A DNA stretch of 64,000 nucleotides from Prorocentrum cordatum (Eukaryota), in NCBI GenBank assembly GCA_963575745.1, contig CAUYUJ010000048.1, positions 62,001-126,000 of the forward strand. The letters run 5' to 3'. The notes under the pieces are model-generated. The model saw only the letters and a list, made by a program, of their open reading frames with translations. It was not told the origin of the DNA and did not search any database. A program made the position numbers and the translations under genes. How positions within the stretch are numbered: the stretch's first letter is position 1; each line of letters begins with the position of its first letter. Shown here piece by piece: positions 5,033 to 49,079 of this stretch.

Positions 5033-6624
5033 GGCTACCCTTACATCCTGGCCCCTTTCGGTCCATCCTTTGGAATTTTCGCTGGTCCACCTCGTTCGAA
5101 AAAAGTTGGCTCTGCCCTTCAAGGCCTTCTTATCCTTGCCCCGCATTGCATACTTATTGTACGGGTTGATTGGACCGACGCCGAAGCCCATCCCCAGTTG
5201 TCCCCTCTGTCGGCCTCCTGGGAGCCCCCTTCGTCGTCATGGCTGGGTTCGCTCCAGGATCCTGGCCCGAACGCGCCCCGGAAGAGGTCTGGCAGAGTAG
5301 TGGTACCTGTATCTGCGAGTGCCCCTGAATATCGAAAAGGGAAAAAGGGGACATCACGTACAGTCGGACCGAGGTAGAAGGTCGAGATCGGTTCGGGGAG
5401 GGCGCCGTAATGCTCTTCGTGTGTTTGTTGGGTGTTCGTGTGCGTCCTGGGGGGGGGGCCCTCGAGCGTTTTTCGTTCTAGCTGCCGGACGGTCTCATGT
5501 TCTCGAGTGGTGCTTTTCCGGCCCAGGTCCGACGGCAGTGGTATCTGTAACGGATCCCGCTCCTCCGAGGATCGGACCGGGGAGCAGGTGGCCATGACGT
5601 CCAGCCACAGCCCGAGCGACGCAAGCGTCGGAGGTCCGCGCAGAAAGTGCTCGGGGCCGGTGCCCCACCGCCCCCCCCCACCTAACCATCCCTCCCCCGG
5701 CGTGCGGAGCGTACCAGGGGGCGGCGCCGGAGGCGCCGCTTGGGGCGTGTGGGGGCATCTCTGTGGCCACGTGCGATCCCAGACCCCCTCGAGTCAAGGA
5801 AAAATCACGACGGGAGGTTGTATATATTTTCGTCCCCTGGGGGCCCTTACCGGGCTTCGGGGCCGTCAAAAAACGATTCAGGATGAAGAGCCAGTGCCGG
5901 GGAAGGGCTCCAGACCTTTGGGGGTCGCGACGTCGGGAGTTTGGGATCCCTGCCCCCGCCCCCGACGAGTTCTGAGGGGGTGGGGGGGGGTGCACTTCGT
6001 TCGGGAGCTCCGGAGTGGAGCGACCCCCCCCCTTCCCCTCCTCAGGATTCGCGAGGGGTGGAGGCAGGGTTCACGTGTGGCCCCTTGGTAGAAGGGGCCC
6101 ACGGCGCCAGCACAAGAGATCTGCCCGAACCGCCGGGATTTCATGCTTAATTCGAAAGTTTCAGCTGTGTTGGCGGTTCTTTAACACAGAGGCTATGATG
6201 TTTCAAGCTACTTTAGTTTTGAACACCAGAAAGACCTTCGAGTACCAAGATCGTACTGGAATTGGAGGAATTTCACGTGTCGGGACCTGGCAGGCAATAC
6301 TCGTTCGACACTGTTCCGATACTTTTCTGGGTGCTCGAAATTATTTCTGGGATGTGGTGTTGAAGTGCGATGGGAACAACATGATACCAGAGAACACACC
6401 CAATCATAATGTTTGTAGGGCTATAGGGCTATGGGCTGTAGGGCTACAGGGCTATGAGGCTCTGGGGCTATAGGGCTATAAGGCGATAGGGCCATGGGGC
6501 TATAGGCCTACAGGCTTACCTGGCACCTTGGCACCCTGGCGGTGCTGCCGAGGTCGGCGCCCCACCTCACCTGACCATATTAATCCGCTATGGCCCCTAC
6601 AGGGGCAAGCTCTGATTGGGGAAA

Positions 6625-8476: not shown

Positions 8477-10740
8477 GCCCGCGGGAGGGGCGAGGTGGCG
8501 GCGGCTGAGGAGAGTGATGACGAGGAGCAGGGGGATGACGATGAGGAGGAGGAGGAGGAGGAGGCGGAGGAGGAGCAGGAGGAGGAGGAGGAGGAGGAGG
8601 AGGAGGAGGAGGAGGAGGAGGAGGAGATGGAGGAGGAGGCGGAGGAGGAGATGGAGGAGGAGGAGGAGGAGGAGGAGGAGGAGGCGGAGGCCCTCCTGCA
8701 TGGAGGATGATGACGGCGAGGAGGGGGAGGACGGCGAGGAGGATGATGAGGAGGACTAAGAGGACGACGAGGTGTGAGAGGGGGCTGCCACTCTCTTGTG
8801 AAGTCGCATGCATGTGTGAACACACTGGACATTGGCCTCGAGGGACTTGCGCAGGAGGAGGATGAGGAATTCATGTGTTATTGCTCCCTTTTTCGAGCCT
8901 CCAAGAGGGCCCTCGCTGCTACAGCTGGAGTTCCATCGAATTGTGGTCGGGTCCCGCTCGGGAGGGGCCCTGAGGCCAAGTCTTAGGGCAGCGGGCGACG
9001 CGACGCCTGAGGGTGGATGAGAGGTAGGAGGAGGCGGAGGAGTAAGTGGAGGGGGCCCGTCGTATCAAGGCGTCGTGAATGTCCCCCTTCGGGCCCTGGG
9101 ACCTTGGGACCCTGAAGGGCCGACCTTGTCAAGAAACATCGCGCGCAATGGTCGGGTAGGGAGTTTGTTGACCAGTCTTATTATTCTAGTCGTTGTGCCT
9201 ATTCACGACGTCGGACTTCGGGCGCAATGACGAGCTCATGCACTCCGATTCGTGTCCGTCTTCTTCATCGAGCATCTGGTGTGCTGGAAGACATCGTTCA
9301 AACGTTCCAGGTGCACGCGGGAGGAGGACGCGGGATGAGTAGGAAGGAGGAACTTAGCAGGTGGAGGATAAATCGCATTTTAGGCAGCAGCGGAGGGAGG
9401 AAGAGGAAGAGGAGGAGGACGAATTGCGGAGTGGTAGGATGAGATGGAGGACTTTGCAGAGAGTTATGAGGAGGAGGAGGAAGGGGAGGAGGATGTGGAG
9501 GAGGAGGAGGAGGAGGAGGAGGAGAAGAAGAGGAGGAGGAGGAGGAGGAGGAGGAGGAGGAGGAGGGAGGAGGGGAGGAGTAGGAAGGGGAGGAGGAGGA
9601 GGAGGAGGAGGAGGAGGAGGAGGAGGAGGAGGAGGAGGAGGCGGAGGAGAGATGCCGACTCGGGGGGGAGGGCCGAGCGCGCGTCTTCCTGGGCCGCCCG
9701 TGGGGAGGGCCGCGCTGCGCGCCTCGTGCCCTGGGCCGCAGCGGCGAGGCATCCCCTCCGTCACTGCTGCGGGCCCTGGACGCCCACTGCGAAGCTTCTC
9801 GAGCGGGGCGCGGCCAACGCATTGGGCCACATGAAGATGCTTCGGCCTGGAGACGGTAACGCTGGTAACGCGGCGGGGCTCGCCGCAGGCGGTTGGATAC
9901 AGACCGATAGCCACCTGCGCCGCCAGCGAGATGCGCAAGCCCAGGGGCCCATACCTGCGAGAAGCCAACAACAGTTCGGAGGTTGCAAGTGGTGGCCCTG
10001 GCCCAAGGTGCCGTCACCTTTCCTCGTTCCATTTGGGAGTCACCGGGGCCGTCTGGGGCCTTGTGAAGTGCGATCGGAACCCATATGGACCCCCCTGAAA
10101 ACATGGGGCCGCCTTGGGCCAGGGGCAATGCTGGCAACACCCGAACATTGGGCCACCGGAAAATGCTTCAGTCTGGAGATGGCCTCGGGCTCTGTTCTGG
10201 ATTGGCACCAGCAAGAGCAGGATGAGAAGGACGCGCGATGAGGACGCAAGGGCCTCGGAAGGCCACGTCGGAGCTTTTCGAGCGGCGGCGCGGCCAGCGA
10301 AAGTGGCCGAGGATGGGCCGAGGAGGCAAGGCTGCAAGGGTACCCCTGAGAAGGTTGCCTTACTATGCGGTGTGACCGTGCTGGCACATCGCGCCTGGGA
10401 CGCGGCGCAGGCGCCGGCGGTAGAGGTGAGGATGAGCAGCCGGTTCACCAGCCGCGATGGCCTTCGGGTCCTGGCGTGCCAACACAAACTCGAGACGGCC
10501 GGCCTTGCCTCATTTTCGGCCTCCGCAGGCCCGATGGCGGAACAAATGCGCGTCGGATGTGCGGGGGTGGTGCTGGAGGTGTTGGACAAGACGCATCTGC
10601 TATGCCCATGTGCCGCGCTCACGTGGAGCCCGATCTTCTGCATCCCAGCGTAGCCGCTGCATCGCTGATGGGCTGCGATCCCTCGTCTTCTGCGGCCCCG
10701 TTTGGGCAGCCTTCATGCCCTTTCCTGTGGGAGCTAAGTA

Positions 10741-14757: not shown

Positions 14758-14883
14758 ATGGCACGGGGCCGGGCCCTGCTCCTGTGCGCACTGCTCGCGC
14801 TCCCGCGCCTGCCGTGCGCCGCGCGGGCCGAGGCGTCGGGCAAGAGCCAGGAGCCCGCAGCAGATCGGAGGGGGGGCCTAGAA
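14758..14883 (+). CDS. Coiled-coil protein exon 1, signal peptide (MARGRALLLCALLALPRLPCAARAEASGKSQEPAADRRGGLE)
   Basis: aaaATGG start, basic N-terminus, hydrophobic core and AxA site. Phase-0 GT donor at 14884 fits the exon at 16081; alternative GA donors exist at 14863 and 14881. Confidence 0.65.
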
Positions 14884-15791: not shown

Positions 15792-16080
15792 TGCTAGGCC
15801 CTCCTGGCCTCTGCGGGGGGGCCGTGCCGTCGGGGCCACCCCGCTGCGGCAGCGCACGCCGGCCGCGTCCTGGTCCTCAGGCCGTCCACGCCCCGAGCTC
15901 TTTCGAAATCCTGCGCCGCGGGGTGGGGTGACACGCTAGCCGCTTGCGGGGCACAGCGTATCGCTGGGGCCACCACCGCGGCACGCTGAGCAAAAGCTCC
16001 TGACCGTATGCGCTCCATGCCAGGGCTCAGGACCGCCTTGGCCAGGCATGGAAATGGTGTGTGGATGCCTTCTGCTTAAG

Positions 16081-17175
16081 GAGGACCCTGTAAACAAGAT
16101 TATCCGGCTCCTGACGGATATGAAAGACCAGGTGGAGAAGGAAGCTTCAGCGGACATGGTCGGTTACAACAAGTACATGTGTTGGTGCGACACCAACAGG
16201 AAGGAGAAGACGGAGGCCGTCGAGATCGCAACCAAAAAGATCGCTGAGCTGACCACGTTCTTGGAGGAGGGAGCGGCCAAGAAGGAGAAGTTGAAAACAG
16301 AAATTCAGGGCCTGGCTGCCGACATCGCCGAAGACACCGAGACGCTGGCCACTGCGACGGCGCTGCGCCAGGATCAAAACTCGAAGTTCAAAGGGGCGGA
16401 GGCCGACATGAAGGAGACCCGCCAGCTCCTGACTGAGGCTGTGGAGGTGCTTTCCAAGGTTCAGTTGCTCCAGACGGGCGCCCCTGGAGCAGAGGCCGAG
16501 AAGGCCAAGACAGCCCTTGTGCAGGTCCGCAACATTGTCAGCAGGCGATTCCCGAAGTACGAGAGCATCATGCAGCGCGACTTCTATGACGTTCTGGGAT
16601 CCTTCGACGAGATGACACAGTCCAGCCAGGTGCTCACCGGCGCGTTCACGAGCGACGCCGATCGTGCGAAGGCTGCCTCGTTGGCACAGTCCGCACAAGA
16701 GGGCCGACTGCTGCCCTGGGAGAAGACGGAAGAGCAGCTCGGCCAGGAGAAGAAACCGAACGAGCTCATCGGAGCCGCCGCCGGCGCCAAGTCGTACAAC
16801 GCCCGCAGCGGCCGCATCCTCGGAGTGCTCAGCGAGCTGAAGGACGAGTTCACGAGGGACTTGGCACAGGCAACCTACGAAGAGTACCTGGCACTCGTGT
16901 CGTTCCAGAAGCTGAAGTCTGCGAAGGCCTCCGAGATCTTCATCGCCACCGAGACGAAGAAGCGCAAGGAGTCCGCCCTCGCCGATCTCCTCGACGCCAT
17001 CGCGAAGGCCAAGGCGGACAAGGCCGCGATGGAGGACGCCAAGGCGGCGGACGAGGCGTTCCTCGCCCAGCTCGAGCAGAGCTGCAAGGACGAGGACGCG
17101 GCCTACCACCAGCGCCTCGCGGCCCGCACCGAGGAGATCCGGGCGCTGTCCGAGGCCCTGAAGATCCTCACCGAG
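16081..17175 (+). CDS. Coiled-coil protein exon 2 (EDPVNKIIRLLTDMK...ALSEALKILTE)
   Basis: 1.1-kb stop-free frame with GC3-rich codons and A/E/K/L-rich helical sequence (YMCWCD, SGRILGVL, CxxE...R..EIRAL). AG|G acceptor. Ends at 17175 (GA donor) or 17184 (GC donor). Confidence 0.92.
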
Positions 17176-17182
17176 GACGCCC

Positions 17183-17369
17183 AGGCTTCCCAAATAGGGT
17201 CCGAATAGATGGGGTTGGTGGATCGCGCCACGTCGCTGATGCATTGGCCATGCGGCTCGACGTGGAGCCCAGTGTTCTGGACGCCGATGCATCGCCGATG
17301 CATCGGCGATGCATCGGCGATGCGGCTCGCTCCAACGACCCCATCTGCTTCGACCCAACTTGGCGGCCT
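17183..17369. mobile_element. Family C palindromic MITE forming intron 2 of the nested gene (Introner-like)
   Basis: TIR aggcttcccaaatagggtccgaatagatgggg...ccccatctgcttcgacccaacttggcggcct with a (gccgatgcatc) palindromic core. Ends coincide with the splice sites. Confidence 0.82.
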
Positions 17370-17373
17370 CCAG

Positions 17374-17994
17374 GACGACGCCCGCGCCACGTTCGGCCGC
17401 TCCTTCAGCCTGCTGCAGCAGCGGTCGCAGCGGAGGGCGTCCACCGAGGCGGAGCTCGCGCAGGACCGGCGTTCCGAGAAGGCCATGCAGCGCATCGCGG
17501 CGATCGCCAAGAAGCACAAGAATTGGGCGCTAGTGTCGCTGGCCGTGCGCACCCGCCTGGACTCCTTCAAGGAGGTAATCGCTGCCATGGACACCATGGC
17601 GGCCGAGCTGGCAACTCAGCAGAAGAAGGAATACGAGAAGTGGGAGACCTGCAAGTCCGAGATCGACAAGACCGAGGACACCATCAAGGTGGAGGAGCGC
17701 ACGAAGAAGGAGCTCGGCGAGACGCACACGTCGCTGGTGGACAAGATCGGCACTCTGAACGGCGAGATAGCCGAGCTCCGGAAGCAGGTGGCCGACAACG
17801 AGGTGGCCCTCAAGGACGCCGGCGAGGACCGGAAGGCCGAGAACCAGCTGTACCAGGCCTCCGTCATGGACCAGCGCGCCACGGTGCGCATCCTCGAGAA
17901 GGCCCTCGCGCGCCTGAAGACGTACTACGCCATGCTGCAGACGGAGCAGCCCGTGCCCGGCGCCACCGCGCCTGCGCCGCCGGCCAGGGGCAAG
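17374..17994 (+). CDS. Coiled-coil protein exon 3 (DDARATFGRSFSLLQ...PAPPARGK)
   Basis: Same composition and codon bias as exon 2. cag|G acceptor, AAG|gt donor. Confidence 0.92.
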
Positions 17995-18769
17995 GTTCGG
18001 GGGCCGCCGCGGTGTACACCAGCGCAGGTCCTGGCCAGGCCAACCCTGGGCTCAGGATATCATCGGTGTCACCCCAACCTGCTGACACTACGTGTACGTC
18101 GCCCCCCCCCCCCCCCCCGAGAGATCTGACAGTGTGTGCGTCGTGGCGGGCGCTTCCTGGCCACACCGCTCGGGGAGCGATACGCTACAAGATGGGCGTA
18201 CTACGTGTTCGGGTCGGACGCGCGCCTCCGAGGAGGACGCGCTGCACCAGCATGAATCTCTGTGCGTGCCAACATCTCGCTGCTCCGAGGCGGGCGGCCT
18301 GGTCACCACCGCCCAGGGGGGTGTCGGTCGTGGGGGGCCTCCGCGGGCCGCGGGTAGATGCCGAGCCCAGGGTTCTCTGTTGGAGGTTTGCCCCCGGAAC
18401 CGACGGCTGTGGGGCCGGCGAAAGTATCTGCGATAAATATCGACTACACGTAAGAGTGACCCTTCGCCGGAGTGACCTCTGGTGCGGGCCCATTGGGGTC
18501 CCCGATCGCCGAACGCCGGGCGGCAGTGGCGTCTTGCGCGCTTGTGTTTTGCCCCCCCCCCCCCCCCCCCCCCCCCGCGGCCCCCAAAAGGTCGCGCACC
18601 AAAGGTCACTCTTACCCAGGGTCACTTTTACATGTACCCGAAAATAACGAAATCGCTTGAGGATGTCTCGAGCGAAATGCTGGTTCTACAGAGTTCGGGG
18701 ATGTCTCGAGCGGGGGCCTCGTGAGGGTTCAGAATTCAGAGGGTATCTCAGGCGAAATGCTTGATTTCA

Positions 18770-21300
18770 CGTGCCCAGGTCGGCCAGGGGGGTATCCAAA
18801 ATGGTTGTACGCCGCTGGCGCCCCAGACGACCGCATGTTGGATATCCCCCCTGGGTGGGCTGGAACCGTGAGTTTTTCGGTGTGCAGGCCATCAGGGGGT
18901 ATCTAACATGGTGGTCCCGAGCTGGAATCACGTGTTTTCACGTGTCCAGCCCACCAAGGGGGGTATCTAACATGGTGGTCCCGAGTTGGAACAACGTGTT
19001 GTTACATGTTCAGGCCACCCAGGAGGATTATCTAACATGGTGGTCCTGCGCTGGAACCGTGTGTTTTCAAGTGTCCAGGCCACCCAGGGGGGTATCTAAC
19101 ATGGTGGTCTTGCGGTGGAACTACGTGTTTTTACCTGTTCAGGCCACCGAGGGGGATATCTAACATGATTGTCCCGAGCTGGAACCACGTGTTTTTACGT
19201 GTCCAGGCCGCCCAGGTGGGATATCCAACATGGCGTCAGGCCCAACGCCGAAGTATCAGGAAACGCAGGGGGGCCCGAACAGCGCTACCCAAACACATAT
19301 CCCAAAACAGGAAAGTGATGTTGTTTTTCTCTGGACAGGGGTGGCGCTTTGGGGCCTCCCCAGGGAAGACATTGCGAGGATGTCTCGAGCGGGAGCGCGA
19401 ATCCAGCGTATCCAGGCCACCCAGGGGGGTACCTAACATGGTTGTCCCGAGCAAGGACCATGTGTGTTAACGTGTCCAGGCAACCCAGGGGTGTATCGAA
19501 CATGGTTGCCCACAACTGATCCTACGTTTGTTTACGCGTCCAGGCCACCCATGGGGGATATCTAACATGGTACATGGTGGTCCTGCGGTGGAACTGATTG
19601 GTTTTACCTGTTCAGGCCACCAAGGAGGATATCCAGCATGGTCCTCCCGAGCTGGAACCACCTGTTTGCACGTGTCCAGGCCGCCCAAGGAGGTATCTAA
19701 CATGGTGGTCCAGAGCTGGAATCATGTGTTTTTACATGTTCAGGCCACCCAGGAGTTTTATCTAACATGGTTATCCTGCGCTGGAACTGCGTGTTTTTAC
19801 GTGTCCAGGCCACCCAGGGGGGTGTCTAACACGGTTGTCCCGAGCTGGAACCACATGTTTTTACATGTCCAGGCCACCCAGTGAGGTATCTAACATGATT
19901 GCTCCGAATTTGAACCACGTGCTTCTACGTGTCCAGGCCGCCCAATGTGGATATCCAACATGGCGTCGGGCCCAACGCCGAATTATCAGGAAACGCAGGG
20001 GGGCCCGAACAGCGCTACCCAAACACATATCCCAAAACAGGAAAGTGATATTGTTTTTCTCTGGGCAGGGGGTGGCGCTTTGGGGGCCTCTCTAGGGGAG
20101 ACATTGCAAGGATGTCTCGAGCGGGAGCGCGAATCCAGCGTATCCAGGACACGCAGCGGGGGTATATAGCATTGTTGTCCCGAGCTGGAACAAAGTGCTT
20201 TGACATGTCCAGGCCAACCGGAGGCGGTATCTAACATGATTGTCCCGAGCAAGGATCATGTGCTTTAACGTGTCCAGGCCACTCATTGGTGTACCTAACA
20301 TGGTTATCCCGAGCTGGCACCATGTGTTTTTACATGTCCAGGCCATCCGGGGGGGAACCTTACATGGTTGCCCCGAGCAAGGACCAAGGCCACCCAGGGG
20401 TGTATCTAATATGGCTGCCTAGAGCTGACATGCACGTGTTTGCGGGTCCAGGCCACCCAGGGGGGTGTCTTACATGGCTGTCCGGAGCTGGAACCACATG
20501 TTTTTTACATGTCCAGGCACTTAATGAGATATCTAACATGATTGCTCCGAGTGTGAACCATGTTTGTACGTGTCCAGGCCGCTCAGGGTGGGTATCTAAC
20601 ATGGCGTCGGGCCCAACGCTGAATTATCAGGAAACGCACGGGAGGCCGAACAGCGCTACCCGAACACAAGTCATTTTTTCTTGCTCTGGACAGGAAGTGG
20701 CGCTTTGGGGGCCTCTCCAAGGAAGACACTGCGAGGACGTCTCGAGCGGGAGCGCGAACCCAGCGTATCCAGGCCACGCAGGGGGGTATCGAGCATGGTG
20801 GTCCCGAGCTGGAACCAAGTGTTTTTACGTGTCCAGGCCACCCAGGGGGATATCTAACAGGATTGTCCCGAGCTGGGGCCACGTGTTTGTACGTGTCCAG
20901 GCTGCCCAGGACAGGTACCTAACATGGTTGTCCCGAGCTGGCGCCACGTGCTTTTACGTGTCCAGGTCACCCAGGGGGGTATCTAACATGGTTGTTCCGA
21001 GCTTGAAATATCATGTGTGGTTCACGTGTCCAGGCCACCCAGGGGGGTATCTAACATGGTTGTCCCGAGCAGGGACCATGTGTGTTAACGTGTCCAGGCC
21101 ACCCAGGGGTGTATCGAACATGGTTGCTCACAGCTGGTCCCACGTGTGTTTACGCGTCCAGGCCACCCAGGGGGTATTAACGTGGTTGTGCCGAATGGGT
21201 GCCACGTGGTTTTACGTGTCCAGGCCGTCTTGGGGGTATTGAACATAGCGGTACCAAGTGCTTTCACGTGTCCAAGCCACCTAGAGGATATCTAACATGG
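18770..21300. repeat. ~61-bp minisatellite with three interspersed ~170-bp modules
   Basis: Unit gtgtccaggccacccaggggggtatctaacatggttgtcccgagctggaaccacgtgtttttac. Modules containing tatcaggaaacgca near 19230, 19960 and 20600. Confidence 0.9.
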
Positions 21301-22384
21301 GCCTCAAGGGCCTTCCTGGGGGCCTGGAACGGACGTCTAACATGAAGATTTGTTGAGGATATCTTGAGCGAACCATTTGTCTTCACGTGTCCCATTCGCC
21401 CAGGCGGATGTTTAGCATGAGGTGGCACGTCCATTGGCTCGTTCCGTAGAGCGTCCCCCTTTAGCGCGTCCTGCGGTGCGTCTCCACGGCACGTCCCCTG
21501 GCACGTCGCCTGGCGCATCCCTTGGGACGTTCCGTGGCGCGTCCCCCTGGCCCGTCTCCTTGTCAAGTAGCTTTGGGGCAGCTGCTATGTTCTCAGGCAG
21601 CTCGAGCTTAAGATCCAACTCAGTTCGGTCAGGACTCGGATGCAAAGGAGGACTCGATCCACAACACTATAGAGCACACTCTCGGTATGGCACATCGCCG
21701 TTCAGCACGGCGCAGCACAGCACAGCCCTCGGCACGGTACACCAAGATCGATACACCCAGCATTGCAATTTGGCACGTTCCTTTGCACGTTCCGTGACGC
21801 GTCCCGTCTCGAGTCCCCCTGACACGTCGCGCGGCGCGTCCCCTGGCACGTCCCGTGGCACGTCCATCGGCACGTTCCGTAGCGCGTCCCCTTGGCATGT
21901 CCCGCGGTGCGTCCCCATCGCACGTCCCCTGGCACGTCGCCTGGCGCGTTCTTGGGACGTTCCGCGGCGCGTCCTCCTAGCATGTCCCCCTGTAAATTAG
22001 CTCTGGGGCAGCTACTATGTGCTCAGGTAGCTCGAGCTTAAGATTCAAACCAGTTCGGTCAGGACTCGGATGCAACGGAGGACTCCATCCACAGCGCTAT
22101 AGAGCACAATCGCGGCATGGCGCATCGCAGTTCAGCACGGCGCAGCACAGCACAGCCCTCGGCACGGTGCATCAAGATCGATACACTCAGCATTGCGTTT
22201 GCCCGTCGTCCAATCAGTTGTACGTTGCCATGCCTTACGTTTCTATATTCCTTTCCGGTTTCGTGGGTCGATCATATTGCCCTTTACTTATCATTCAGGC
22301 CGGTGGGGCCGACCATGACCAGAGCCACCACCAGCTGAGGGCTCTGGGCATACGTGCGCATACCGTCCTGACCAAGACAGGAGG

Positions 22385-22729
22385 GCATACACACACCGAC
22401 GCAGACACACCTAGACACAGACATACAGACACAGACATACAGACACACAGACACACAGAGACACACAGACACACACACATACACCCACACACATACACCC
22501 ACACACCCACACCCACACCCACACCCACACGCACACGCACACGCACACACACACACACGCACACACGCACACACAGACACACAGACACAGACAGACACAC
22601 AGACACAGACACACAGACACACAGACACTCAGACACACAGACACACACAGACACACACACACACACGCGCACACGCACACACGCACACACGCACACACGC
22701 ACACACGCACGCACGCACGAACGCACACA

Positions 22730-22760
<31 letters not shown>

Positions 22761-24070
22761 CGGCCCGCCCGCCCGCACGCACGCACGCCCGCCCGCCCGC
22801 CCGCCCGCGCCCGAACACACACACACACACACACTTACACACACTTACACACACTTACACACACTTACACACACTTGCACACACTTGCACACACTTACAC
22901 TTACACACACACACTTACACTTACACACACTTACACACAACACACACAACACACAACACACACACACACAACACACAACACACACAACCACACAACACAC
23001 CACACACAACACACAACACACAACAAACACACAACAAACACACACGCACACGCACACGCACACGCACACGCACACGCACACGCACACGCACACGCACACG
23101 CACACGCACACGCACACGCACACGCACACGCACACGCACACGCACACGCACACGCACACGCACACGCACACGCACACGCACACGCACACGCACACGCACA
23201 CGCACACGCACACGCACACGCACACGCACGCGCACGCGCACGCGCACGCGCACGCGCACGCGCACGCGCACCGCACGCGCGCACGCACACGCACACGCGC
23301 GCGCACACGCGCACGCACGCGCGCACGCACACGCGACGCACACGCACACGCACCCACACCACACACACACACACACGCACACACACACACCACACGCACA
23401 CACACACACACACCCACACACACACGCACACGCACACGCATACGCACACGCATACGCATACGCGCACGCGCACGCGCGCGCACGCGCGCGCGCGCCCGCG
23501 CGCCCGCGCGCGCCCGCGCGCCCGCGCCCCGCGCGCCGCGCACCCGCGCACCCGCGCGCCCGCGCCCGCGCACCCGCGCACCGCGCACCCGCGCACCCGC
23601 GCGCACCCGCGCACCGCGCACCCGCGCGCGCGCGCACCCGCGCACCCGCGCACCCGCGCACCCCCACCCCACACCCCCACACCCCCACACCCCACACCCC
23701 ACACCCCCACACCCCCACACACACATACACACATACACACGCACGCGCACGCGCACACGCACACGCACACGCACACGCACACACACACACACACCACACA
23801 CCACACACCACCACACACACACACACACCACACACCACCACACACACACAATCACACACACAAACGCACGCACGCACGCACGCACGTACATACACAAACA
23901 CACGCACACGCGCACACGCGCACACGCGCACACGCGCACACACGCATACACGCACACACGCACACAATCACACAATCACACACGCACGCAGCACGCACAC
24001 GCACACACAATACACACGCAAGCACGCACTCATGCACACACGCACACAGCACGCACACGCACACACAATA
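22385..24070. repeat. CA/CG-rich compound microsatellite
   Basis: (CA)n, (CACACG)n and (CGCACCCG)n blocks. A similar (CAACACA)n tract lies at ~29230-29910. Confidence 0.95.
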
Positions 24071-24142
24071 CACCGATCCTGGGCCCAGGACGGGGCTGGG
24101 TAGGGCCGATGTAGAGTGTATAACGTCGGCGCCCCCGTGCAG

Positions 24143-24442
24143 GCGTACGAGAAGGGCGCCGGCGCCGCAGGCGTCCTGCAGGTCATCCAGATGGTCATCG
24201 AGGACGCCACGCGCACAGAGCAGGCGCTCGACAAGGACGAGAACGATGCGCAGAAGCGCTATGCGGCCATCGTGAACGACCTCACGGCCAGCATCGAGGC
24301 GGACCGCATCGCGATCGAGGAGAAGGAGCAGCAGGTCGCCGCAACCGAGGTGGAGAAGAGCGAGACAGAGGAGGCCCAGCTGGCCAACGAGGAGGAGCTC
24401 AAGAACCTGGCGGAGCTGTTGCACGCGCACCACCTGGAGTGC
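24143..24442 (+). CDS. Coiled-coil protein exon 4 (AYEKGAGAAGVLQVIQMVIEDA...LLHAHHLEC)
   Basis: cag|G acceptor, in frame with exon 3. Parallels the SYNARSGRILGVL segment of exon 2 (internal duplication). GA donor at 24443. Confidence 0.9.
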
Positions 24443-26026
24443 GATCCACATGGCTGCCGCCACATCCGCCGACCCCCCTCGCGTTTCCGAGGCTGCGGCT
24501 GGCCGCCGCAGGCGTGGATGCCAGGGAACTTGAGCGGGGGGCGGAGACGAGAAGATCGTGGAGGGGGCGCAGAGGACGAGGACAAAGGGGAGGATGAGAC
24601 GGAGGAACATAAGGGGCAAGAGAGAGAGAGGGAGAGAGAGAAAAAAGAAGAAGAAACAAATCCATTCACATCAATTCGAAACGGTGCTTGGCGGGTCGGC
24701 AGGGGCCCCCGTACTTCCTGGCGTTGGAGCGGCCCCAGAGCGGCCCCAGAGGGCGCCAAGAGAGTTGTTCAACGGCACCAGGACGCCTCAAGCTGGCCTT
24801 CGGGGCCCCGAAGATGCCCAAAGAGAGCCCCAGGAAGGCCGAAAAGAGTTCCAAGACGCCCTAAGATAGCCCCAGGACGGCCCAAGAGGCCCCGTAGACG
24901 CCCCAGGAGGTCCCCAGGACGACTTGAAAGAGGGCTTCAAGCACACATCGTCCAAATTCATTAAGTTTTTGCATGATTTGCGCATTGCCGCCCTGTTCGC
25001 CCTCACGACGCCTCCGACGGCCCAAGAGACCGCCAGAATCGGCACGAGACGGCCCAAGAGACCCCCACGAGATTCGAAAGACGGCCCCAGAGGCCACCAA
25101 GCGAGCTCCAACACGGCCCCAGGGGCCCCCAAGAAGGCCACATACTCCCCCTGGACGAGTCCAGGAGGCCCCAAATACGGTCCCAAGATGTGCCCGAGAG
25201 ACGCTATCCGAGCTGATATGTCGTGTTTTCCATCCCACGATGGCCACAAAAGCCCAAAAGAGGTCCCCGAGGGGCCCCCAACAGGCTCCCAGAGGCCCCC
25301 TAAGAGGACCCCCAGAGGCCCCAAGAGGCCCCAAGAGCCCTTGGTAGAGAGGGCCCCAGGTTGAGCCAAGAGCGCCGTAGTTGCCCCGCTCCACTTTCGC
25401 ATCCGCTGCGGCCCCTGGGCGATTCCATATTTTTCCCAGCAGGGGCGTCGGCCCAGGGTTCTCTTTTAGCTCTTTACCCCCGGAATCGACGGCTGTAGGG
25501 CCAGCGAAATGATCTGCGATACGGAACGGGGTCGAGCAGGGCTGGCGAAATGATTGTTGATGTCTCGAGCGAAACGCTTGTTTTGTCTCAGAATGTGTTG
25601 ATGATGTCTCGAGCTAAACGCTTGGTTTGTGTTATAGATGGTTCCCCGCCTGGGGACCAGAATTCAGAGGATGTCTCAGGTGAAATGCTTGATTTCACGT
25701 GCTCAGATCTTGAGGATGTCTCTCTCTGTTTCCCCATATCCTCAGATGGGGTTCTTGTTATTACTTGGACGCCTCCTACTCCTCCTCCTTCTTCCTCCTC
25801 CTCTTTTCTCGTCCCCTCCTGTCGGACATACTCAGACTTGCTCATACACAGACTTACTCATACTCAGACTTACTCATACTCAGACCTACTCATACTCAGA
25901 CTTACTCACACTCAGACATACTCATATACAGACTTACTCATACACAGACTTACTCATACACAGTATTAGTCATACCCAGACGTACACATACACAGACTTA
26001 CTCATACACAGACTTACTCATACTCA

Positions 26027-26480
26027 GCACCCCTAAGGGGAGCCGCCAGGGGTGGTTGCACGGGCTCGTTCGCGGCCATTTTGTGGGGATGTCTCAGGCG
26101 GTTTGCCTGTTTCTGTGCCCAACATCCTTCGCTTTCGGAGCAGATTTGGAGGATGTCTCGAGCGAGGCGCTCATTTCAGCACCCCTAAGGGGAGCCGCCA
26201 GGGGTGGTTGCACGGGCTCGTTCGCGGCCATTTTGTGGGGATGTCTCAGGCGGTTTGCTTGTTTCTGTGCCCAACATCCTTCGCTTTCGGAGCAGATTTG
26301 GAGGATGTCTCGAGCGAGGCGCTCATTTCAGCACCCCTAAGGGGAGCCGCCAGGGGTGGTTGCACGGGCTCGTTCGCGGCCATTTTGTGGGGATGTCTCA
26401 GGCGGTTTGCCTGTTTCTGTGCCCAACATCCTTCGCTTTCGGAGCAGATTTGGAGGATGTCTCGAGCGAGGCGCTCATTT
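26027..26480. repeat. 152-bp tandem repeat, 3 near-identical copies
   Basis: cagcacccctaaggggagccgccagggg recurs at 152-bp spacing; identical ORF starts at 26052, 26204 and 26356. Confidence 0.92.
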
Positions 26481-27654
26481 TCACCCCCCAGGTGGGCCAG
26501 ATTTTGAGGATGTCTCGATCGGTTTGCTAGTTTTGGTGGCCAGGCTCGTGGGCGCAGATTCTTCTCAGGATGCCACAGGAGGCTCCAACAGGCTCCAGGA
26601 GGCTCCAGGAGACCACATGAGGTCCCAGGAGGCATCAGGAGGCCACAGAAAGACTCAAGAGGCCACAGGATGTCCCAAGAGGCTCCAGGAGGCCCCAGGA
26701 AGCTCCAGAAGGCCTCAGGAAACCACAGGAGACCCCAGGAGACAACAGGAAGCGCCAGGAGGCCTCGGAAGGCAACAGGAGGCCCCGAGAGGCCCCAGGA
26801 GCAGGAGGCCTCAGAAGGCAACAGGAGTGGCTCCAATCCCATGTGTTTTACGTATGCTCCTATCGATTGGGCCTCACCTGGAGCACGATTCTTTGATGTT
26901 CTACGTATGTTTCTATAGATGGTCCTTCTCCTGTGTACACAATCCTAAATGTTTTACTCATGTTCCTATGTATTGGGCCTCTCCTGGGGCACGAGTCCTT
27001 GGTGTTTTACGCGTGTTCCTATAGATTGCCCTTCTCCTGTGGCTCTAATCCGCAATGTTTTATGTACGTCTGTTGCTATAGATTGCGCCTCCCCTGGGGC
27101 ACGAAACCTTCCTAGGAGGTCCCAGGAGGTCCCAAGAGGCTCCTGGAGACCCCAGGAAGCCCCAGTAGGTTTCAGGAGGCCCCAGGAGGCCCCAGGCTCA
27201 TGCACAGAGACGCGCTCGTACTACTGAGGCTCATTCACACTCCAATTCATTCGCAGTTAGATTGATGTCCAGACCGTCACAACTGAAGCCCGTTAATATT
27301 CGAAAGTTCTTGCGCCTAGACATTCACGGCGGACAGGTCCATGCGAGTAGATGCACATATGGGGAGCTCCACGCAGTGAATATGTTTTTTGTTCTCTCTC
27401 TCCCTCTCTCTCTCTCTCTTTCTCTCTCTCGAGAGACGCTTCGAGGATGTCTCGAGCGAAATTCTTGTTTTACAGAACTCGAGCGGCCTGGGCGCCCCAG
27501 GATGCCCAGGTGGTTCTGGGAGTCCGAACGCAATGTAATTTCCTAAGGAACGTGGCCCTGGGAGCGCGGACGCAGCGTAATTCACCAGGGAGCGCAGCCT
27601 TGGGAGCGTTGACGCAGCGTAGTTTACAAGGGACCGTGGCCCTGGCAGCACGGT

Positions 27655-28495
27655 GCCCTGGCACGTTTCGTGGCGCGTCCCGTGGCGAGTCCCTTTGGCA
27701 CGTCGCGCGGCGTGTCCCCTGGCACGTCCCGTGGCACGTCCAGTGGCACGTTCCGTAGCGCGTCCGTTTGGCACGTCTTGCGGTGCGTCCCCATTGCACG
27801 TCCTCTGGCACGTCGCCTAGCGCGTCCCTTGGGACGTTCCGAAGCGCGTCCCCTTGGCTTGTCCCTTTGTCAAGTAGCTCAGGGGCAGCCACAATGTGCT
27901 CAGGCAGCTCGAGCTTAAGATCAAGGCCAGTTCGGTCAGGACTCGGATGCAAAGGAGGACTCGGTCTACAACGCTATACAGCAGAATCGTTCCATGGCAC
28001 TTCGCAGTTCAGCACGGCGCCGCGCAGCACAGCCTTTGGCACGGAACACCAAGATCGATACATTCAGCATTGCAACCTGGCACGTTTCGTGGCGCGTCCC
28101 GTGGCGAGTCCCTTTGGCACGTCGCGCGGCGCGTCCCCTGGCACGTCCCGTGGCACGTCCAGTGGCACGTTCCGTAGCGCGTCCGTTTGGCACGTCTTGC
28201 GGTGCGTCCCCATTGCACGTCCTCTGGCACGTCGCCTAGCGCGTCCCTTGGGACGTTCCGTAGGGCGTCCCCCTGGCCTGTCCTCTTGTCAAGTAGCTCA
28301 GGGGCAGCCACTATGTGCTCAGGCAGCTCGAGCTTAAGATCAAGGCCAGTTCGGTCAGGACTCGGATGCAAATGAGGACTCGATCCACAACGCTACAGAG
28401 CACAATCGCGGCATGGCACATCGCAATTCAGTACGGCGCAGCACAGCACAGCTCCTGGCACGGCACATCAAGATCGATACATTCAGCCTTGCAAT
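27655..28495. repeat. ~419-bp tandem duplication of a composite-element 3' module
   Basis: ORFs at 27768 and 28187 begin identically. Homologous to ~21420-22270 and ~31540-32260. Confidence 0.88.
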
Positions 28496-30579
28496 TGCTT
28501 GTCGCCCAATCAGGTGTCTTGAAGACGTCACCATGCCTTACATTTCTGTACTTCTTTCCGGGTTCGTGGTTCGAGCATGTTCGGCCGCTCCGCGCGCCTC
28601 CCGCGCGCCCTCTCCGTGCGCGCAGGACGCAAGGGAGAGGGCGCGATCCAGACGCGGTTGCTCCAGCGCTGAACCCGCCTGCAAGCGTTTGGCGATTTTA
28701 CTTCGGCCCCCGCATGGACGCGGCGGGCGCCCTCGGTGGAGGAGCAGTTGTGAAACGCGCTTCAATCAAGTCGCAGTTGTGAAACGCGCTTCAATCCTTA
28801 GGATAAGCGGCAGTACAGTCAAGATGCTAGAATAAGGAACAGTTTGGGTTCGGAAGGGGCTCGGTGTTCCTTAGTTCGTTCCATGGCTGTTCCTCTAGCC
28901 CTCCTCGTGAACGAAGGCGGTTCTAGGGCTTAAAGGGGCTTCGTTCCTTAGCTAGCGTTCCATATTTCAGCGGCCCGACTGTAGCTAACAGCGTCGCAAA
29001 ACCAGACGCGCGCCGTCTCTCCTCGACCCCCTCGATTCCAGGGATTATCCCATGGGTCCCCGCTCGTTTTTTCCCGGAAGAGCCTGGGGCCCAGGATTCT
29101 CGTTGTCTTGGTTTCCCCCCGGCCTCGACTTGCGCAGGGCCGGCGAAAATATTGTAGTGGCCTTCCGCCAGTGCCGCCGTTCCGGGTCGCTTGAGGTGCC
29201 CCCCAGATTGGGTTGCGACTCTTCGCCAACAGACACGCACGCACACGCTCGCAGACATTACGCGCACACACGCACACACACACACACACGCGCACACACA
29301 CACCCACAGGCACACACAAACACACACACATACACACACAACACACACAACACACACAACACACAACACACAATACACAACACACAACACACACAACACA
29401 CACAACACACACAACACACAACACACACAACACACACAACACACAACATACGCACAACACACAACACACAACACACACAACACACAACATGCAACACACA
29501 CACAACACACAACACACACAACATACAACACACACAACACAACACACACACACAACACACACAACACACAACACACACAACACACACAACACACACAACA
29601 CACACAACACACAACACACACAACACACACAGCCACAGCACACACACAACACACACAGCACACACACAGCACACACAGCACACACAGCACACAGCACACA
29701 CAACACACACAACACACACAACACACACAACACACAACACACAACACACAACACACAACACACAACACACACAGCACACCACACACACACACACACTACA
29801 CTCACACACGCGCGCCACCTTCGCAGGCACATACACACGCACACGCCGGCAACACGCACACATACACACCGCGCACACCGCACAAACACACACACACCAC
29901 ACAACAGACACGCATTTCACCGCCACCTTCGTCTTCCCCCCATTTGTTTCCCGTTTTTTCGCTCTTGTCCCGTTCCACTTCTCTATCCCTCTTTCCTCGA
30001 TTTCTTTCCCGCGTTCACGGACAAACCTTACCCCGCGCACGCGCGCACCCCCCCCTCCCTTCCTCCCCTGCAGAGCCACCCCAGCAACCATTCCAGAGGC
30101 TGAAGCTCAGCCTCGACGCTGTAGGTGAGGCTCCTTCAAACTCACACGCTGCGGAAGCCTCCCCTTCCCATCCCCCACGCCATCAGAACGCACGCCACCG
30201 GAATCCCGCCCTTTTTCTTCCCCCAAAACCCCCTGTCCACAGGCGGGACGGGGGACCGAACCCCCCCCCCCTCTCCACGCCACCGGAACCCACGCCACCG
30301 GACCCCCCCCCTTTCTTTTACCCCGGCAGAGCCACCCCGGCCACCGGACCCCCCACTCTCCCCCCCTCTTCCCCCAATCCCCCTTGTCCACAGGCGGGAC
30401 GGGGGACCGTACCCCCCCCCCACGCCACCGGAACTCACGCCACTGGAATCCCCCCCCTCCCCCCCCTCCCCCTACCCCGGCAGAGCCACCCTGGTCACCC
30501 CGCCCCCCTGAAACCCGCACGCCGGATCGACTGATTTCTTTCATATGTAACGACGTCGCCCATGGCAGGCGCGTGAAGA

Positions 30580-32419: not shown

Positions 32420-32450
<31 letters not shown>

Positions 32451-40996: not shown

Positions 40997-41000
40997 GTTC

Positions 41001-41171: not shown

Positions 41172-41176
41172 TACAG

Positions 41177-41524: not shown

Positions 41525-42055
41525 GGGTCGGGGGGGAGGGGGGGGAGGCTTCTTAGAGGCACCCGTGCTTTTCAGAGGGCGCGGGCCTCGTCTGTGGATG
41601 TGGGGCCGGCGCCTTCTGAGAGGCCGCCTCCTTCCAAGAGGCCTTCCCCCCTCCCCCATTACCCCCTCGTGCGTGCCGCCGACTTGTGTGGATGGATTCG
41701 AGGACCTCTCGCCAAGATACGTTCACGTTCAGGAGACAGCGCGGCGTGAGAGGAAGGTTGGACTAAAGGCGAAGAGCCATGTCCCGGGCCGTTTTCATCG
41801 AAGGTGTTTTGGTAAGAGGGTTCTGGTCACCCCGAGTCACCGGCCGTGGCCAGCAGCACGACCATGATCTCTGACTCGCCACGAGGCTCCCCTGGGGCAC
41901 TACCACGGAGCGATCTGGCTCGATTGTCCCCCGTGTGAGAATGGCGTCTCGAAGCCTCTGGTCATGATTCTTCGCGGCGTCTCGGTTCTTCTACGGCATC
42001 GGATCCCGCGACCGACCTTCTGAACTGCACTCTTTTGCCCCGAGTCGGAGGATCT

Positions 42056-42564
42056 AGGCGTCCTAAATGGGGTCGGAGTAGATGGGGTCGGAGGATCGCG
42101 CCGCATCGCCGATGCATCGCCGAATGCGGCTCGAAGTGGGGCCCGATTTGCTTCGCGTCGACGTCGCCGATGCATCGCCGACATCGACGATGCATCGCCT
42201 GTGCATCACCGATGCATCGCCCATGTATCGAAGAAGATAAAAAAATACAAACATCAAAACATAAACTTTTGGCGCTCTGCGGTGATTTCTCGGATCCGTG
42301 CTGGGAGCCCCCTGGCGGCGCCTTTGGCGCCGCCCCTGGCGCGCTCCGCGCGCCAGGGAGGGGGGCACCGCGCGGAGCCAAAAAATCCGCGCGGAGTGCC
42401 AAAATTTAATGTTTATGGTGTGTGTGTGTGTGTTGTGTGTGTGTGTTGTGTGTGTGTTGTGTGTGTGTGTTGTGTGTGTGTGTGTGTTCCATTTTTCTTC
42501 GAATGTATCGGCGATGCGCCGCGAGCCTCCGACCCTATCTACGCCGACCCCATCGAGGAAGCCT
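42056..42564. mobile_element. Family C MITE carrying a nested insertion
   Basis: aggcgtcctaaatggggtcggagtagatgggg...ccctatctacgccgaccccatcgaggaagcct, with the same core repeats as the other family C copies. Confidence 0.8.
42228..42502. mobile_element. Nested TIR element with 5-bp TSD
   Basis: tcgaagaa...ttcttcga flanked by atgta/atgta. Removing it restores the palindromic core of the host MITE. Confidence 0.8.
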
Positions 42565-48446: not shown

Positions 48447-48674
48447 GGCAAGGGGTGTTCTTTCCGAACTCGTATTGCTCGAAGGCGAACCCCCGCATAA
48501 TGCGCCAGCATCGCCGAGCTATTCGAACGGGCAGCCGGCTGTACCCCAGCGCGAGGTCGGAACCGGAGGACGGGCCACGACGCACACGACAAGCACGGCG
48601 CCGGCGACGCTGGCGCTGCTAACAGCCCCAGACCTTCGAAGCCGTGATTTGTGCACGATGTGGGCCCCTTCTCG

Positions 48675-48845
48675 AGGCCTCCCAGATGGGGTCGGAGCAG
48701 ATGGGGCCGCAGAATGGCGCCGCATCGCCGACGCACCGTCGATGTCGCTTATGAATCACCGATGCATCGCCGATGCATCGGCGATGCATCTGCGATGAGG
48801 TGCAATGCTCCGACCACGTCCACCCGGACCCTATTTGGGAGGCTT
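48675..48845. mobile_element. Family C MITE
   Basis: aggcctcccagatggggtcggagcagatgggg...cggaccctatttgggaggctt with a gccgatgcatcggcgatgcat core. Confidence 0.8.
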
Positions 48846-49079
48846 TCAGACGGGGCTAGGACGAGGATAAATCCGTTCAAGAGCGTTCCGGCACGCCTTC
48901 CGAGCATTCCGGGACGCTCTGAGAAGACATTCTCCAGTCGGAGATTGCTGGAAGAGCCTGTGGCCCAAGGTGCCCCCAGGATGTCCAAGGAGCCCCCCAC
49001 GGCCTCCAGAGCACCCCCCACGAGGCCCACAGGGCCCCAGAGGCTCCAAAATTGAGCGAATAGCTGGGGGCACCTTGGG

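What the first reader, a model, noticed from the sequence alone, without database searches (positions are those of the whole stretch)
17176..17373. An intron that is a MITE, with two sibling copies in the same window
Seen: the 189-198-nt intron contains an in-frame stop and is almost exactly one family C element, with TIRs running to the splice sites and CCAGG/AGGACG repeated at the junctions. Related copies at 42056-42564 and 48675-48845 sit inside other introns and are not introns themselves. Inference: an intron-generating (Introner) family whose AGGC terminus can supply an AG|GC donor.
Basis: partly seen in the sequence, partly recalled or inferred. Interest (0 to 1): 0.75.

Follow-up and report, generated by a model that had tools for sequence, protein, structure and literature searches.

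The report
Transposon-made intron in a dinoflagellate gene
A 190-base hairpin-shaped mobile element sits in the coding sequence of a dinoflagellate coiled-coil protein gene and is cut out of the messenger RNA exactly as a 198-base intron, a clean example of an already described way of making new introns.

Summary
Window 17176-17373 interrupts one long open reading frame, carries a single in-frame TAG, folds into a long hairpin (z -8.2) and belongs to a repeat family. That family has two more clear copies (about 42053-42564 and 48671-48849) and one decayed copy (about 10518-10716) in the window.

Assembled RNA contigs from 4 of 4 runs laid (4 studies, two of them polyA RNA libraries) skip exactly 198 bases, bounded by the 6-base repeat AGGACG. 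The only reading with an AG acceptor is GA...AG, 17176-17373. All 10 aligned homologous proteins lack exactly the 66 inserted residues.

The family-homologous DNA fills the intron to within 4-7 bases at the 5' end and 0-4 at the 3' end. The insertion therefore made the intron; it did not land in an older one. The borders (GACG|CC...AG|GACG) fit the introner signature published for Symbiodinium and Polarella. Introner elements are also reported for Prorocentrum cordatum, the only named relative found.

The "AG|GC donor from the AGGC terminus" idea is not supported. The scan has already reported this kind of intron on other pieces of this genome. No genome was available, so family-wide counts and intron-less alleles remain untested.

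The parts
17176..17373 (+). Spliced intron, 198 nt, GA...AG, phase 0 (between codons GAG and GAC). It holds the in-frame TAG at 17206-17208.
   Evidence: Joint 17173>17372 'skips 198, both=6' in contigs of 4 of 4 runs. Of the 7 possible cut positions only this one has an AG acceptor. The mRNA-like contig L001 joins at the same place. A 66-residue gap appears in 10 of 10 homologues.
17174..17179 (+). Upstream copy of the direct repeat AGGACG. It is the putative target-site duplication, of which 4 nt (GACG) to 6 nt are real duplication. It contains the donor AG|GA.
   Evidence: It equals the 6 letters that 'fit on either side' of the RNA joint.
17372..17377 (+). Downstream copy of the direct repeat AGGACG. 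It contains the acceptor AG|GACG.
17180..17373 (+). Family C element under the 4-nt TSD reading (CC...AG termini). The core that aligns to the siblings runs AGGC 17183 ... GCCT 17369.
   Evidence: blastn to siblings from 17183 to 17373. nhmmer hits 17181-17252 and 17369-17300. Alignments of the termini.
17190..17253 (+). Left arm of the terminal inverted repeat.
   Evidence: the repeat finder pair I1, 64 nt, 75% complementary. Hairpin in the fold.
17300..17363 (+). Right arm of the terminal inverted repeat.
17282..17323 (+). Internal palindromic 11-nt repeats (CGATGCATCGC-type) shared by all clear family copies.
   Evidence: Families D1 and I2-I4. 95% matches to 48755-48800.
16079..17175 (+). 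Upstream exon of the secreted coiled-coil protein gene.
   Evidence: RNA contigs start matching at 16079, with other-exon sequence before it (tables 7 and 8). tblastn of P0003.
17374..17995 (+). Downstream exon. Its end is slidable by one G at the AAG|GT donor.
   Evidence: Contigs run 17372-17995 and then continue into the exon at about 24143.
42053..42564 (+). Sibling copy of family C. It is a composite: the termini are conserved, and the interior holds a (GT)n tract and a nested unrelated repeat. No recognisable target-site duplication.
48671..48849 (+). Sibling copy of family C, about 179 nt, with CT...AG termini. No recognisable target-site duplication.
10518..10716 (-). Decayed probable fourth copy. 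One arm was detected by the profile; the outer limits were set by eye.
   Evidence: nhmmer 10714-10651, E 0.0017. Sequence.

Best explanation
A non-autonomous TIR transposon (MITE, about 187-194 nt) inserted into the coding exon of a secreted coiled-coil protein gene of a GC-rich dinoflagellate. It landed at ...ACCGAG|GACG... and duplicated a short target (GACG, possibly AGGACG).

The insertion is tolerated because the spliceosome removes one repeat copy plus the whole element as a 198-nt GA-AG, phase-0 intron (17176-17373). That restores the original reading frame without a scar.
- The donor (AG|GA) comes from the upstream repeat copy.
- The acceptor AG is the last two bases of the element (its CT...AG terminus), or equivalently the start of the downstream 6-nt repeat.
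- The long hairpin formed by the inverted repeats brings donor and acceptor to within about 11 nt of each other, which probably helps a weak GA donor.

Shown: splicing to the base, family membership, hairpin, flanking repeat, and absence of the insert from homologous proteins.
Inferred: that the insertion created the intron, the length of the duplication, and any role of the hairpin.
For: (1) Splicing.
- One joint, 17173>17372, skipping 198 nt with 6 ambiguous letters, appears in contigs of 4 of 4 runs laid. The runs come from 4 studies: X12 and X17 are polyA RNA libraries, X1 and X6 are of unrecorded kind.
- The carrying contigs have 0 mismatches in X1 and X6.
- They also join the neighbouring exons across introns of 1.2 kb and 6.1 kb, so they are mRNA (exon map).

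(2) Independent metatranscriptome contig L001 (90% nt identity) reads ...CTCACCGAGGACGACGC... across the same point.

(3) All 10 of 10 aligned homologues, including the 98%-identical P0003, lack exactly the 66 residues. The junction is ILTE|DDAR.

(4) Of the 7 cut positions compatible with the joint, only 17176-17373 gives G at +1 and an AG acceptor followed by G.

(5) Family-homologous sequence runs from 17181/17183 to 17369/17373, leaving no room for an older intron.

(6) The hairpin has z -8.19.

(7) The borders GACG|CC...AG|GACG match the published signature: a repeated tetramer, CT or CC at +5/+6, and an inverted repeat ending at the 3' splice site. GA donors are reported as enriched in recently gained introns (Roy et al., bioRxiv 10.1101/2020.10.14.339549, parts 1-2 of 4 read).

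(8) Five of 7 family termini carry CT 0 to 2 bases before AGGC/AAGC: four have two bases between and one has none. The 7 termini are 6 in the window plus one loose-ended RNA contig. This supports an element-borne CT...AG end.
Against: - The shorter side of the joint is only 26 nt in every run, below the tool's 31-nt rule of thumb. The adjoining contig overlaps it by about 30 nt, as expected at a contig break of the assembly, but this is my reading.
- All runs are contigs, so retention or minor isoforms cannot be excluded.
- AG|G at both borders is expected from the dinoflagellate splice consensus alone. Only 3 of the 6 repeated bases (ACG, chance about 1/64) argue for a target-site duplication.
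- Neither sibling copy shows a recognisable duplication of 4 or 6 nt.
- This copy's own left terminus is CCCAGGC, not the CTGGAGGC of the right one.
- The arms are only 75% complementary and the copies are 68-78% alike, so the insertion is not recent.
- No intron-less genomic allele, paralogue or orthologue was seen, because no genomic DNA of relatives was obtainable.
- Only 1 of 3-4 copies in the window is shown to be an intron.
Confidence: 0.8

Rival explanations
1. Same introner, different anatomy. The element made a 6-nt target-site duplication (AGGACG), and both splice sites are recruited from the duplicated exon sequence, as in the AGGH classes 13/14 of Polarella. The element itself contributes no splice site.
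For: The exact repeat is 6 nt and is bounded by mismatches on both sides. AG|GA occurs in both copies. Roy et al. describe classes that take both sites from an AGGH duplication.
Against: With a 6-nt duplication the element would start CCCAGGC and end GCCTCC. Its outermost 2-3 bases would then not be inverted repeats. The family termini instead extend to CT..(AG) in 5 of 7 termini. The parts of Roy et al. that I read name duplications of 3, 4, 5 and 8 nt, not 6.
Confidence: 0.3
2. An older intron existed at this position and the MITE later inserted into it. The element is a passenger, not the maker of the intron.
For: The copies are old (arms 75% complementary; siblings 68-78% identical). No intron-less genomic relative was found. 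The other copies in the window appear to lie in non-coding DNA.
Against: Family-homologous sequence covers 17181/17183-17369/17373 of the 17176-17373 intron. At most 5-7 nt at the 5' end and 0-4 nt at the 3' end are not element, and these are accounted for by the flanking repeat. An intron of about 10 nt cannot have existed.
Confidence: 0.05
3. Excision is guided by the hairpin and the direct repeats, as proposed for the non-canonical introner elements of Amoebophrya, and not by GA/AG recognition. The true cut could then lie at any of the 7 positions within the repeat.
For: The joint is ambiguous over 6 nt. The strong hairpin brings the borders together. Farhat et al. 2021 (PMC7789003, passages read) describe introners with IR plus DR and no canonical sites. 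Earlier notes of this scan claim AG-less hairpin introns in this genome (e1-7693999 and e1-7625077; not checked by me).
Against: An ordinary dinoflagellate reading is available: AG|GA donor, AG|G acceptor, phase 0. It matches the consensus described by Roy et al.. Nothing here requires a non-spliceosomal mechanism.
Confidence: 0.1
4. The RNA contigs come from an identical second gene copy that lacks the element at the DNA level, while this locus is an interrupted pseudogene.
For: The gene belongs to a multi-copy family. Variant contigs with 8-12 differences per roughly 130-150 nt occur in all runs. No DNA run was available for comparison.
Against: The joint-bearing contigs in X1 and X6 have 0 differences from the window over 624 and 133 nt. 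Paralogues are readily told apart by many differences. The rest of the locus is intact, with correct exon joins. The insert has proper GA-AG borders in phase 0.
Confidence: 0.04

Closest known systems
Symbiodinium-type introner-like elements, and Polarella glacialis classes 4/5 (Roy et al., bioRxiv 10.1101/2020.10.14.339549; later Curr Biol 2023, which I did not see)
   Same: - The inverted repeat ends at the 3' splice site.
- It is flanked by a repeated tetramer of the form GHNN (here GACG), whose upstream copy is the 5' splice site.
- CC stands at intron positions +5/+6.
- The donor is GA.
- The exon is restored without a scar.

   Different: - The host genome is far more GC-rich (58.9% in this window).
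- No sequence comparison with the published families was possible, because the bioRxiv supplement is closed.
- The repeat here is exact over 6 nt, not 4.
- This copy's left terminus deviates from CT.
Polarella glacialis introner classes 13/14 (4-nt AGGH duplication, both splice sites from the duplication)
   Same: AGGA is present at both borders. Both splice sites can be read inside the duplicated exon sequence. The intron is in phase 0, as those classes prefer.
   Different: The repeat is 6 nt, not 4. Family termini suggest that the AG belongs to the element.
'Introner elements' (IE+ introns) of Prorocentrum cordatum and other free-living dinoflagellates (Dougan et al., Genome Biol 2023, PMC10666404; criteria from Farhat et al. 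2021, PMC7789003)
   Same: [quoted passage not shown]
- GC content fits (59.7% reported).
- The only named relative of the host protein is from P. cordatum (P0117, 60% identity).
- IEs are reported in 2.4% of that species' introns.
   Different: That work defined IEs by pattern only: IR of 8-20 nt and DR of 3-5 nt within 30 nt of the intron ends. It did not use sequence families or per-intron RNA junctions. I have not shown that the window is from that species.
Aureococcus anophagefferens / Micromonas pusilla Introners (Huff, Zilberman and Roy 2016; recalled, and cited in the papers read)
   Same: A DNA-transposon insertion creates an intron by co-opting one splice site from the target-site duplication.
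   Different: Different lineages and element families. Those use GT donors and fixed duplication lengths, a detail I recall and did not read here.

Membership tests
Introner / introner-like element (TE-generated spliceosomal intron) | The sequence is removed from mature mRNA as an intron. | tested here: met
   A 198-nt skip in contigs of 4 of 4 runs from 4 studies. mRNA-like contig L001. 10 of 10 homologues lack the insert.
Introner / introner-like element (TE-generated spliceosomal intron) | The intron is (nearly) coextensive with one copy of a repeated element that also occurs elsewhere in the genome. | tested here: met
   Family homology spans 17181/17183-17369/17373 of intron 17176-17373. 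There are two clear and one decayed further copies in the 64-kb window. The genome-wide copy number could not be tested.
Introner / introner-like element (TE-generated spliceosomal intron) | Transposon hallmarks: terminal inverted repeats and a target-site duplication. | tested here: met
   TIR of 64 nt at 75%, hairpin z -8.19, flanking AGGACG x2. Caveats: 3 of the 6 bases are expected from the splice consensus, and the duplication is not recognisable at the two siblings.
Introner / introner-like element (TE-generated spliceosomal intron) | Many members of the same family are themselves introns in unrelated genes (intron generation at scale). | not testable with these tools
   No genome is held. 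Pattern scans gave 0 matches in metagenome contigs, viral contigs and genome contigs. In the window 1 of 3 clear copies is a shown intron.
Introner / introner-like element (TE-generated spliceosomal intron) | The intron is absent at the orthologous or paralogous genomic site in relatives (a gain, not an ancestral intron). | not testable with these tools
   Only spliced mRNA-like contigs of relatives were found: 22 of 22 loci. No DNA run was recognised among the 24 runs. There is no paralogue in the window.
Symbiodinium-type ILE signature (Roy et al. 2020) | Intron positions +1..+4 are repeated as the first 4 exon bases after the 3' splice site, with the form GHNN. | tested here: met
   GACG at 17176-17179 and at 17374-17377.
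Symbiodinium-type ILE signature (Roy et al. 2020) | CT (or CC) at intron +5/+6, and an inverted repeat that ends at the 3' splice site. | tested here: met
   CC at 17180-17181. The right terminus is ...GGCCTCCAG|, the reverse complement of the CTGGAGGCC terminus seen in other copies.
Amoebophrya-type non-canonical introner elements | No canonical splice dinucleotides, so that excision is defined only by IR and DR. | tested here: not met
   A GA...AG reading followed by G exists within the ambiguous joint. This intron therefore does not need that category.

The most novel reading that the evidence does not exclude
Family C would be a sequence-defined member of the same transposon superfamily (4-nt GHNN duplication, CT...AG termini) that built introns in Symbiodiniaceae and Polarella. 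Here it would be working in a distant, GC-rich, Prorocentrum-like dinoflagellate.

That would mean one intron-generating transposon type has been active across dinoflagellate orders, or has moved between them. Its AGGC-bearing termini might also allow more than one splicing frame: the unseen 189-nt GC-AG variant would add three residues.
Probability: 0.3. Interest if true: 0.4.

Novelty: new member of a known kind. Interest (0 to 1): 0.25.

Why it matters
This is a base-exact, RNA-supported example of a mobile element turning coding sequence into an intron. Donor, acceptor and hairpin can each be traced to parts of the element and its insertion scar.

It adds a sequence-defined family to a lineage where such introns were, in what I read, catalogued only by a repeat pattern. 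It does not change what is known. Transposon-driven intron gain is well described in dinoflagellates, and this scan has already reported several such introns on other pieces of the same genome.

Tried and rejected
- Whole genome for a family census: none is held.
- More family copies by an IUPAC pattern of the terminus plus inner motif. The pattern fits 4 of the 6 termini in the window by my own reading. It gave 0 matches in metagenome contigs, viral contigs and genome contigs.
- Earlier scan notes by sequence, by place near and by words: nothing.
- Genomic paralogues or orthologues via the search for related loci: all 22 of 22 loci are uninterrupted mRNA-like contigs and none carries family C. 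The intron-position test therefore failed for lack of DNA.
- Paralogue within the window: none.
- The 189-nt GC-AG splice: no such joint was listed. Contigs cannot exclude a rare isoform.
- Intron retention: the low depth inside the intron (table 2) comes from contigs with mismatches and loose ends, which are other family copies. It says nothing either way.
- Target-site duplications at the siblings: none of 4 or 6 nt. A possible 3-nt TTC at 48.6 kb and a gapped 8-nt repeat at 42.0 kb were seen by eye only and rejected as unconvincing.
- Pfam on the host protein: 0 families for P0003 and P0004, although the protein database lists a precomputed PF27870.
- Supplementary tables of Roy et al. and Dougan et al. 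that list introner families: bioRxiv supplements are closed, and the 2 held files of PMC10666404 do not contain the tables. Whether this family is already catalogued is therefore unknown.

Full report
**What is at the coordinates**

The window is GC-rich eukaryotic DNA (58.9% GC). Between 15940 and 18129 a single reading frame is open apart from one TAG at 17206-17208. The stretch 17176-17373 carries:
- a 64-nt imperfect inverted repeat (17190-17253 with 17300-17363, 75% complementary);
- internal palindromic 11-nt repeats;

As RNA the 198 nt fold into one long hairpin of -116.3 kcal/mol. Two hundred dinucleotide shuffles average -77.8 +/- 4.7 (z -8.19), and none folds as well. The outermost pairs lie 7 nt inside the 5' border and 4 nt inside the 3' border.

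**The repeat family**

- 17183-17323 against 42056-42193, 78% over 142 nt, E 5e-26;
- 17185-17373 against 48843-48671, 68% over 190 nt, E 2e-12.

Both siblings have inverted arms of their own. Aligning the six termini gives a shared end of the form (CTNN)AGGC[C/T]TCC..A.GGGTC.....AGATGGGGTC..., followed by CATCGCCGATGCATCG.

A profile of these termini also detects a decayed arm at 10651-10714 (E 0.0017). I read this, by eye, as part of a fourth, degenerate copy at about 10518-10716. The hits to the six input termini are circular and prove nothing by themselves.

The 42-kb copy is a composite. Its interior holds a (GT)n tract and a GC-rich palindromic repeat with relatives at 1839-1916, 5690-5745 and 31541-31583.

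**Is it spliced?**

No genome is held for this window. One run search was allowed. It listed 24 runs, of which 18 hold half or more of the sampled words of 16050-17990, each with a share of 0.75-0.86. That share is what a transcript lacking about 200 of the 1941 bases would give.

I laid four runs from four studies. X12 and X17 are on record as polyA RNA libraries. X1 and X6 are of unrecorded kind.
- In all 4 of 4 runs a contig joins 17173 to 17372, skipping 198 nt, with 6 letters that fit on either side. This is the only joint listed.
- The same contigs, or ones overlapping them, run from 16079 to 17995. Their loose ends continue into other exons of the gene. For example, the letters behind 17995 match the exon beginning near 24143.
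- They are therefore spliced mRNA, not DNA.
- In X1 and X6 the joint-bearing contigs have no mismatch to the window. In X17 the contig is a variant with 9 differences, a paralogue or allele, joined at the same place.

Caveats:
- The shorter side of the joint is 26 nt in every run, below the tool's 31-nt rule. The neighbouring contig (16708-17175/17177) overlaps it by about 30 nt, which I take to be an assembly break at a variant.
- Contigs cannot show retention or rare isoforms.

**Where the cut lies**

The joint can slide over the repeat AGGACG, giving seven candidate introns. Only 17176-17373 has G at +1 and an AG acceptor: AG|GACGCC...CCTCCAG|GACG. This is a GA-AG intron in phase 0, followed by G.

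Roy et al. describe these properties as usual for dinoflagellates. They report GA donors as enriched among recently gained introns, and GH conserved after the 3' site (bioRxiv 10.1101/2020.10.14.339549, parts 1 and 2 of 4 read).

**Independent support**

A read-through translation (TAG as X; P0002) found 266 relatives at E <= 1e-5, of which the best 120 were listed. I aligned 10 of them: the 7 best hits, P0012, P0015 and P0117. Their identity to the query runs from 98% down to 54%. All 10 lack exactly the 66 residues encoded by 17176-17373, and the junction reads ILTE|DDAR.

P0003, at 98% identity, is evidently the product of this gene or a near-identical one.

A scan of JGI contigs with P0003 returned 22 loci, all uninterrupted mRNA-like contigs. 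L001 is 90% identical in DNA and aligns as follows:
- window 16081-17179 to L001 169-1267;
- window 17372-17994 to L001 1262-1884.

It therefore lacks the same 198 nt, with the same 6-nt overlap.

**Did the element make the intron?**

Family-homologous sequence begins at 17181-17183 and ends at 17369-17373. The non-element remainder of the intron is 5-7 nt at the 5' end and 0-4 nt at the 3' end. All of it lies within or next to the flanking repeat.

What I could not obtain is the positive proof: an orthologous or paralogous genomic site without the element. Only RNA-derived sequences of relatives were found, and there is no paralogue in the window.

**Anatomy of the insertion**

Two readings fit.

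(a) A 4-nt duplication, GACG, and an element running CC...AG (17180-17373).
- The element's last two bases are the acceptor.
- The upstream GACG gives the donor.
- This is the signature Roy et al. give for Symbiodinium and for Polarella classes 4/5: a repeated tetramer GHNN, CT or CC at +5/+6, and an inverted repeat ending at the 3' splice site.
- In its favour, 5 of 7 family termini carry CT 0 to 2 bases before AGGC/AAGC. The 7 are six in the window plus one loose-ended RNA contig whose sequence runs ...CTGGAGGCCTCC into the element. Four of the five have two bases between the CT and AGGC/AAGC: 17373 end, both 48-kb ends, and the RNA contig. The 42-kb left end has none. The two that fail are this copy's left end (CCCAGGC) and the 42-kb right end.

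(b) A 6-nt duplication, AGGACG, with both splice sites taken from it, as in Polarella classes 13/14 (AGGH).

The RNA outcome is identical under both. I favour (a), at roughly 5:3.

The evidence for a duplication is weaker than six matching bases suggest. AG|G at both borders is expected from the splice consensus, so only ACG (about 1 in 64) is extra. Neither sibling shows a recognisable duplication of 4 or 6 nt. That may reflect their age, since their arms are 70-87% complementary.

"Intron-generating family" is supported for this copy and untested for the family.

"AGGC terminus can supply an AG|GC donor" is not what happens here. The donor lies 7 nt upstream of AGGC, in the flanking repeat.

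"Siblings sit inside other introns" is plausible:
- The host gene's last coding exon ends at 41239, and its mRNA has under 200 nt of UTR in total. P0003 comes from a 2399-nt contig and has a 2205-nt coding sequence.
- Fragments resembling aldo/keto-reductase exons lie at about 42.6, 47.8 and 48.1-48.25 kb. The Pfam PF00248 hit has E 8.5e-5 and is below its cut-off.
- No RNA was laid there.

**The host gene and organism**

The gene encodes a roughly 734-residue secreted coiled-coil protein of a large dinoflagellate family. It has a signal peptide in exon 1 and no Pfam family in my copy.

tblastn with P0003 and the contig ends together place the exons at:
- 14758-14856;
- 16079-17175;
- 17374-17995;
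- about 24143-24445;
- 40952-40996;
- 41177-41236.

The introns are thus about 1.2 kb, 198 nt, 6.1 kb, 16.5 kb and 180 nt.

The only named relative is a partial Prorocentrum cordatum protein (P0117, 60% identity). The window's GC content matches the 59.7% reported for that genome (passages). I did not establish the species.

**Comparison with what is known**

Transposon-made introns are described in:
- Symbiodinium and Polarella (Roy et al.);
- Amoebophrya (Farhat et al. 2021, PMC7789003, passages);
- diverse eukaryotes (Gozashti et al. 2022 and 2025: search listing, and passages of PMC12130899).

Dougan et al. report pattern-defined introner elements in 2.4% of P. cordatum introns (PMC10666404, supplementary file 1, passage).

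This scan itself has eight listed notes of the same kind on other pieces of this genome. None of them is on this sequence family.

The present case is therefore a well-supported new member of a known kind. Its value is as a clean, RNA-verified example.

Noticed in passing
window 40997-41176: The last intron of the same gene (180 nt, CAG|GT...CAG|GA, with CAGG repeated at both borders) is itself a near-perfect foldback. Its arms are 80% complementary over about 171-177 nt, and the MFE is -148.5 kcal/mol for 40998-41176. It is a different sequence family, with no other copy detected in the window at E 1e-4. It is probably a second transposon-made intron in this gene. The junction RQ|EEM agrees with P0003.
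   Followed up: partly
window 17996-18060: By eye, the 5' end of the 6.1-kb intron (GTTCGGGG...GTGTACAC...CTGGCCAGGCC) resembles the left arm of the foldback intron at 40997 (GTTCGGGCG...CTGGCCAGGCC). blastn at E 1e-4 did not report it, so this is unverified.
   Followed up: no
window 42240-42490: The family C copy at 42 kb is split by a nested insert. The insert holds a GC-rich palindromic repeat with relatives at 1839-1916, 5690-5745 and 31541-31583, plus a (GT)n tract like the long arrays at 22.4-24.1 kb and 29.2-29.9 kb.
   Followed up: no
window 17996-24142 and 24446-40951: The gene has two very long introns (about 6.1 and 16.5 kb). They are full of microsatellites and tandem repeats, for example a periodic ORF-like repeat around 18765-19884.
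   Followed up: no
window about 42600-48300: Scattered exon-like fragments resemble an aldo/keto reductase: GYRLIDTAQVYNNE near 42.7 kb and LGVDYIDLYVI near 48.2 kb. The Pfam PF00248 hit has E 8.5e-5, below its cut-off. They are separated by kilobases of low-complexity DNA.
   Followed up: partly
window 16078-17960 (RNA contigs): All four runs hold variant contigs with 8-12 differences per roughly 130-150 nt beside the exact ones. The protein search finds relatives at 85-92% identity (P0004-P0007). The gene therefore belongs to an expressed multi-copy family.
   Followed up: partly
window 17197 and 17229 (loose ends): The polyA RNA library X12, and X1 (kind unrecorded), contain contigs that match only part of the element and continue into unrelated sequence. 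Other family C copies are thus present in that RNA, in UTRs or as retained or unspliced copies.
   Followed up: no
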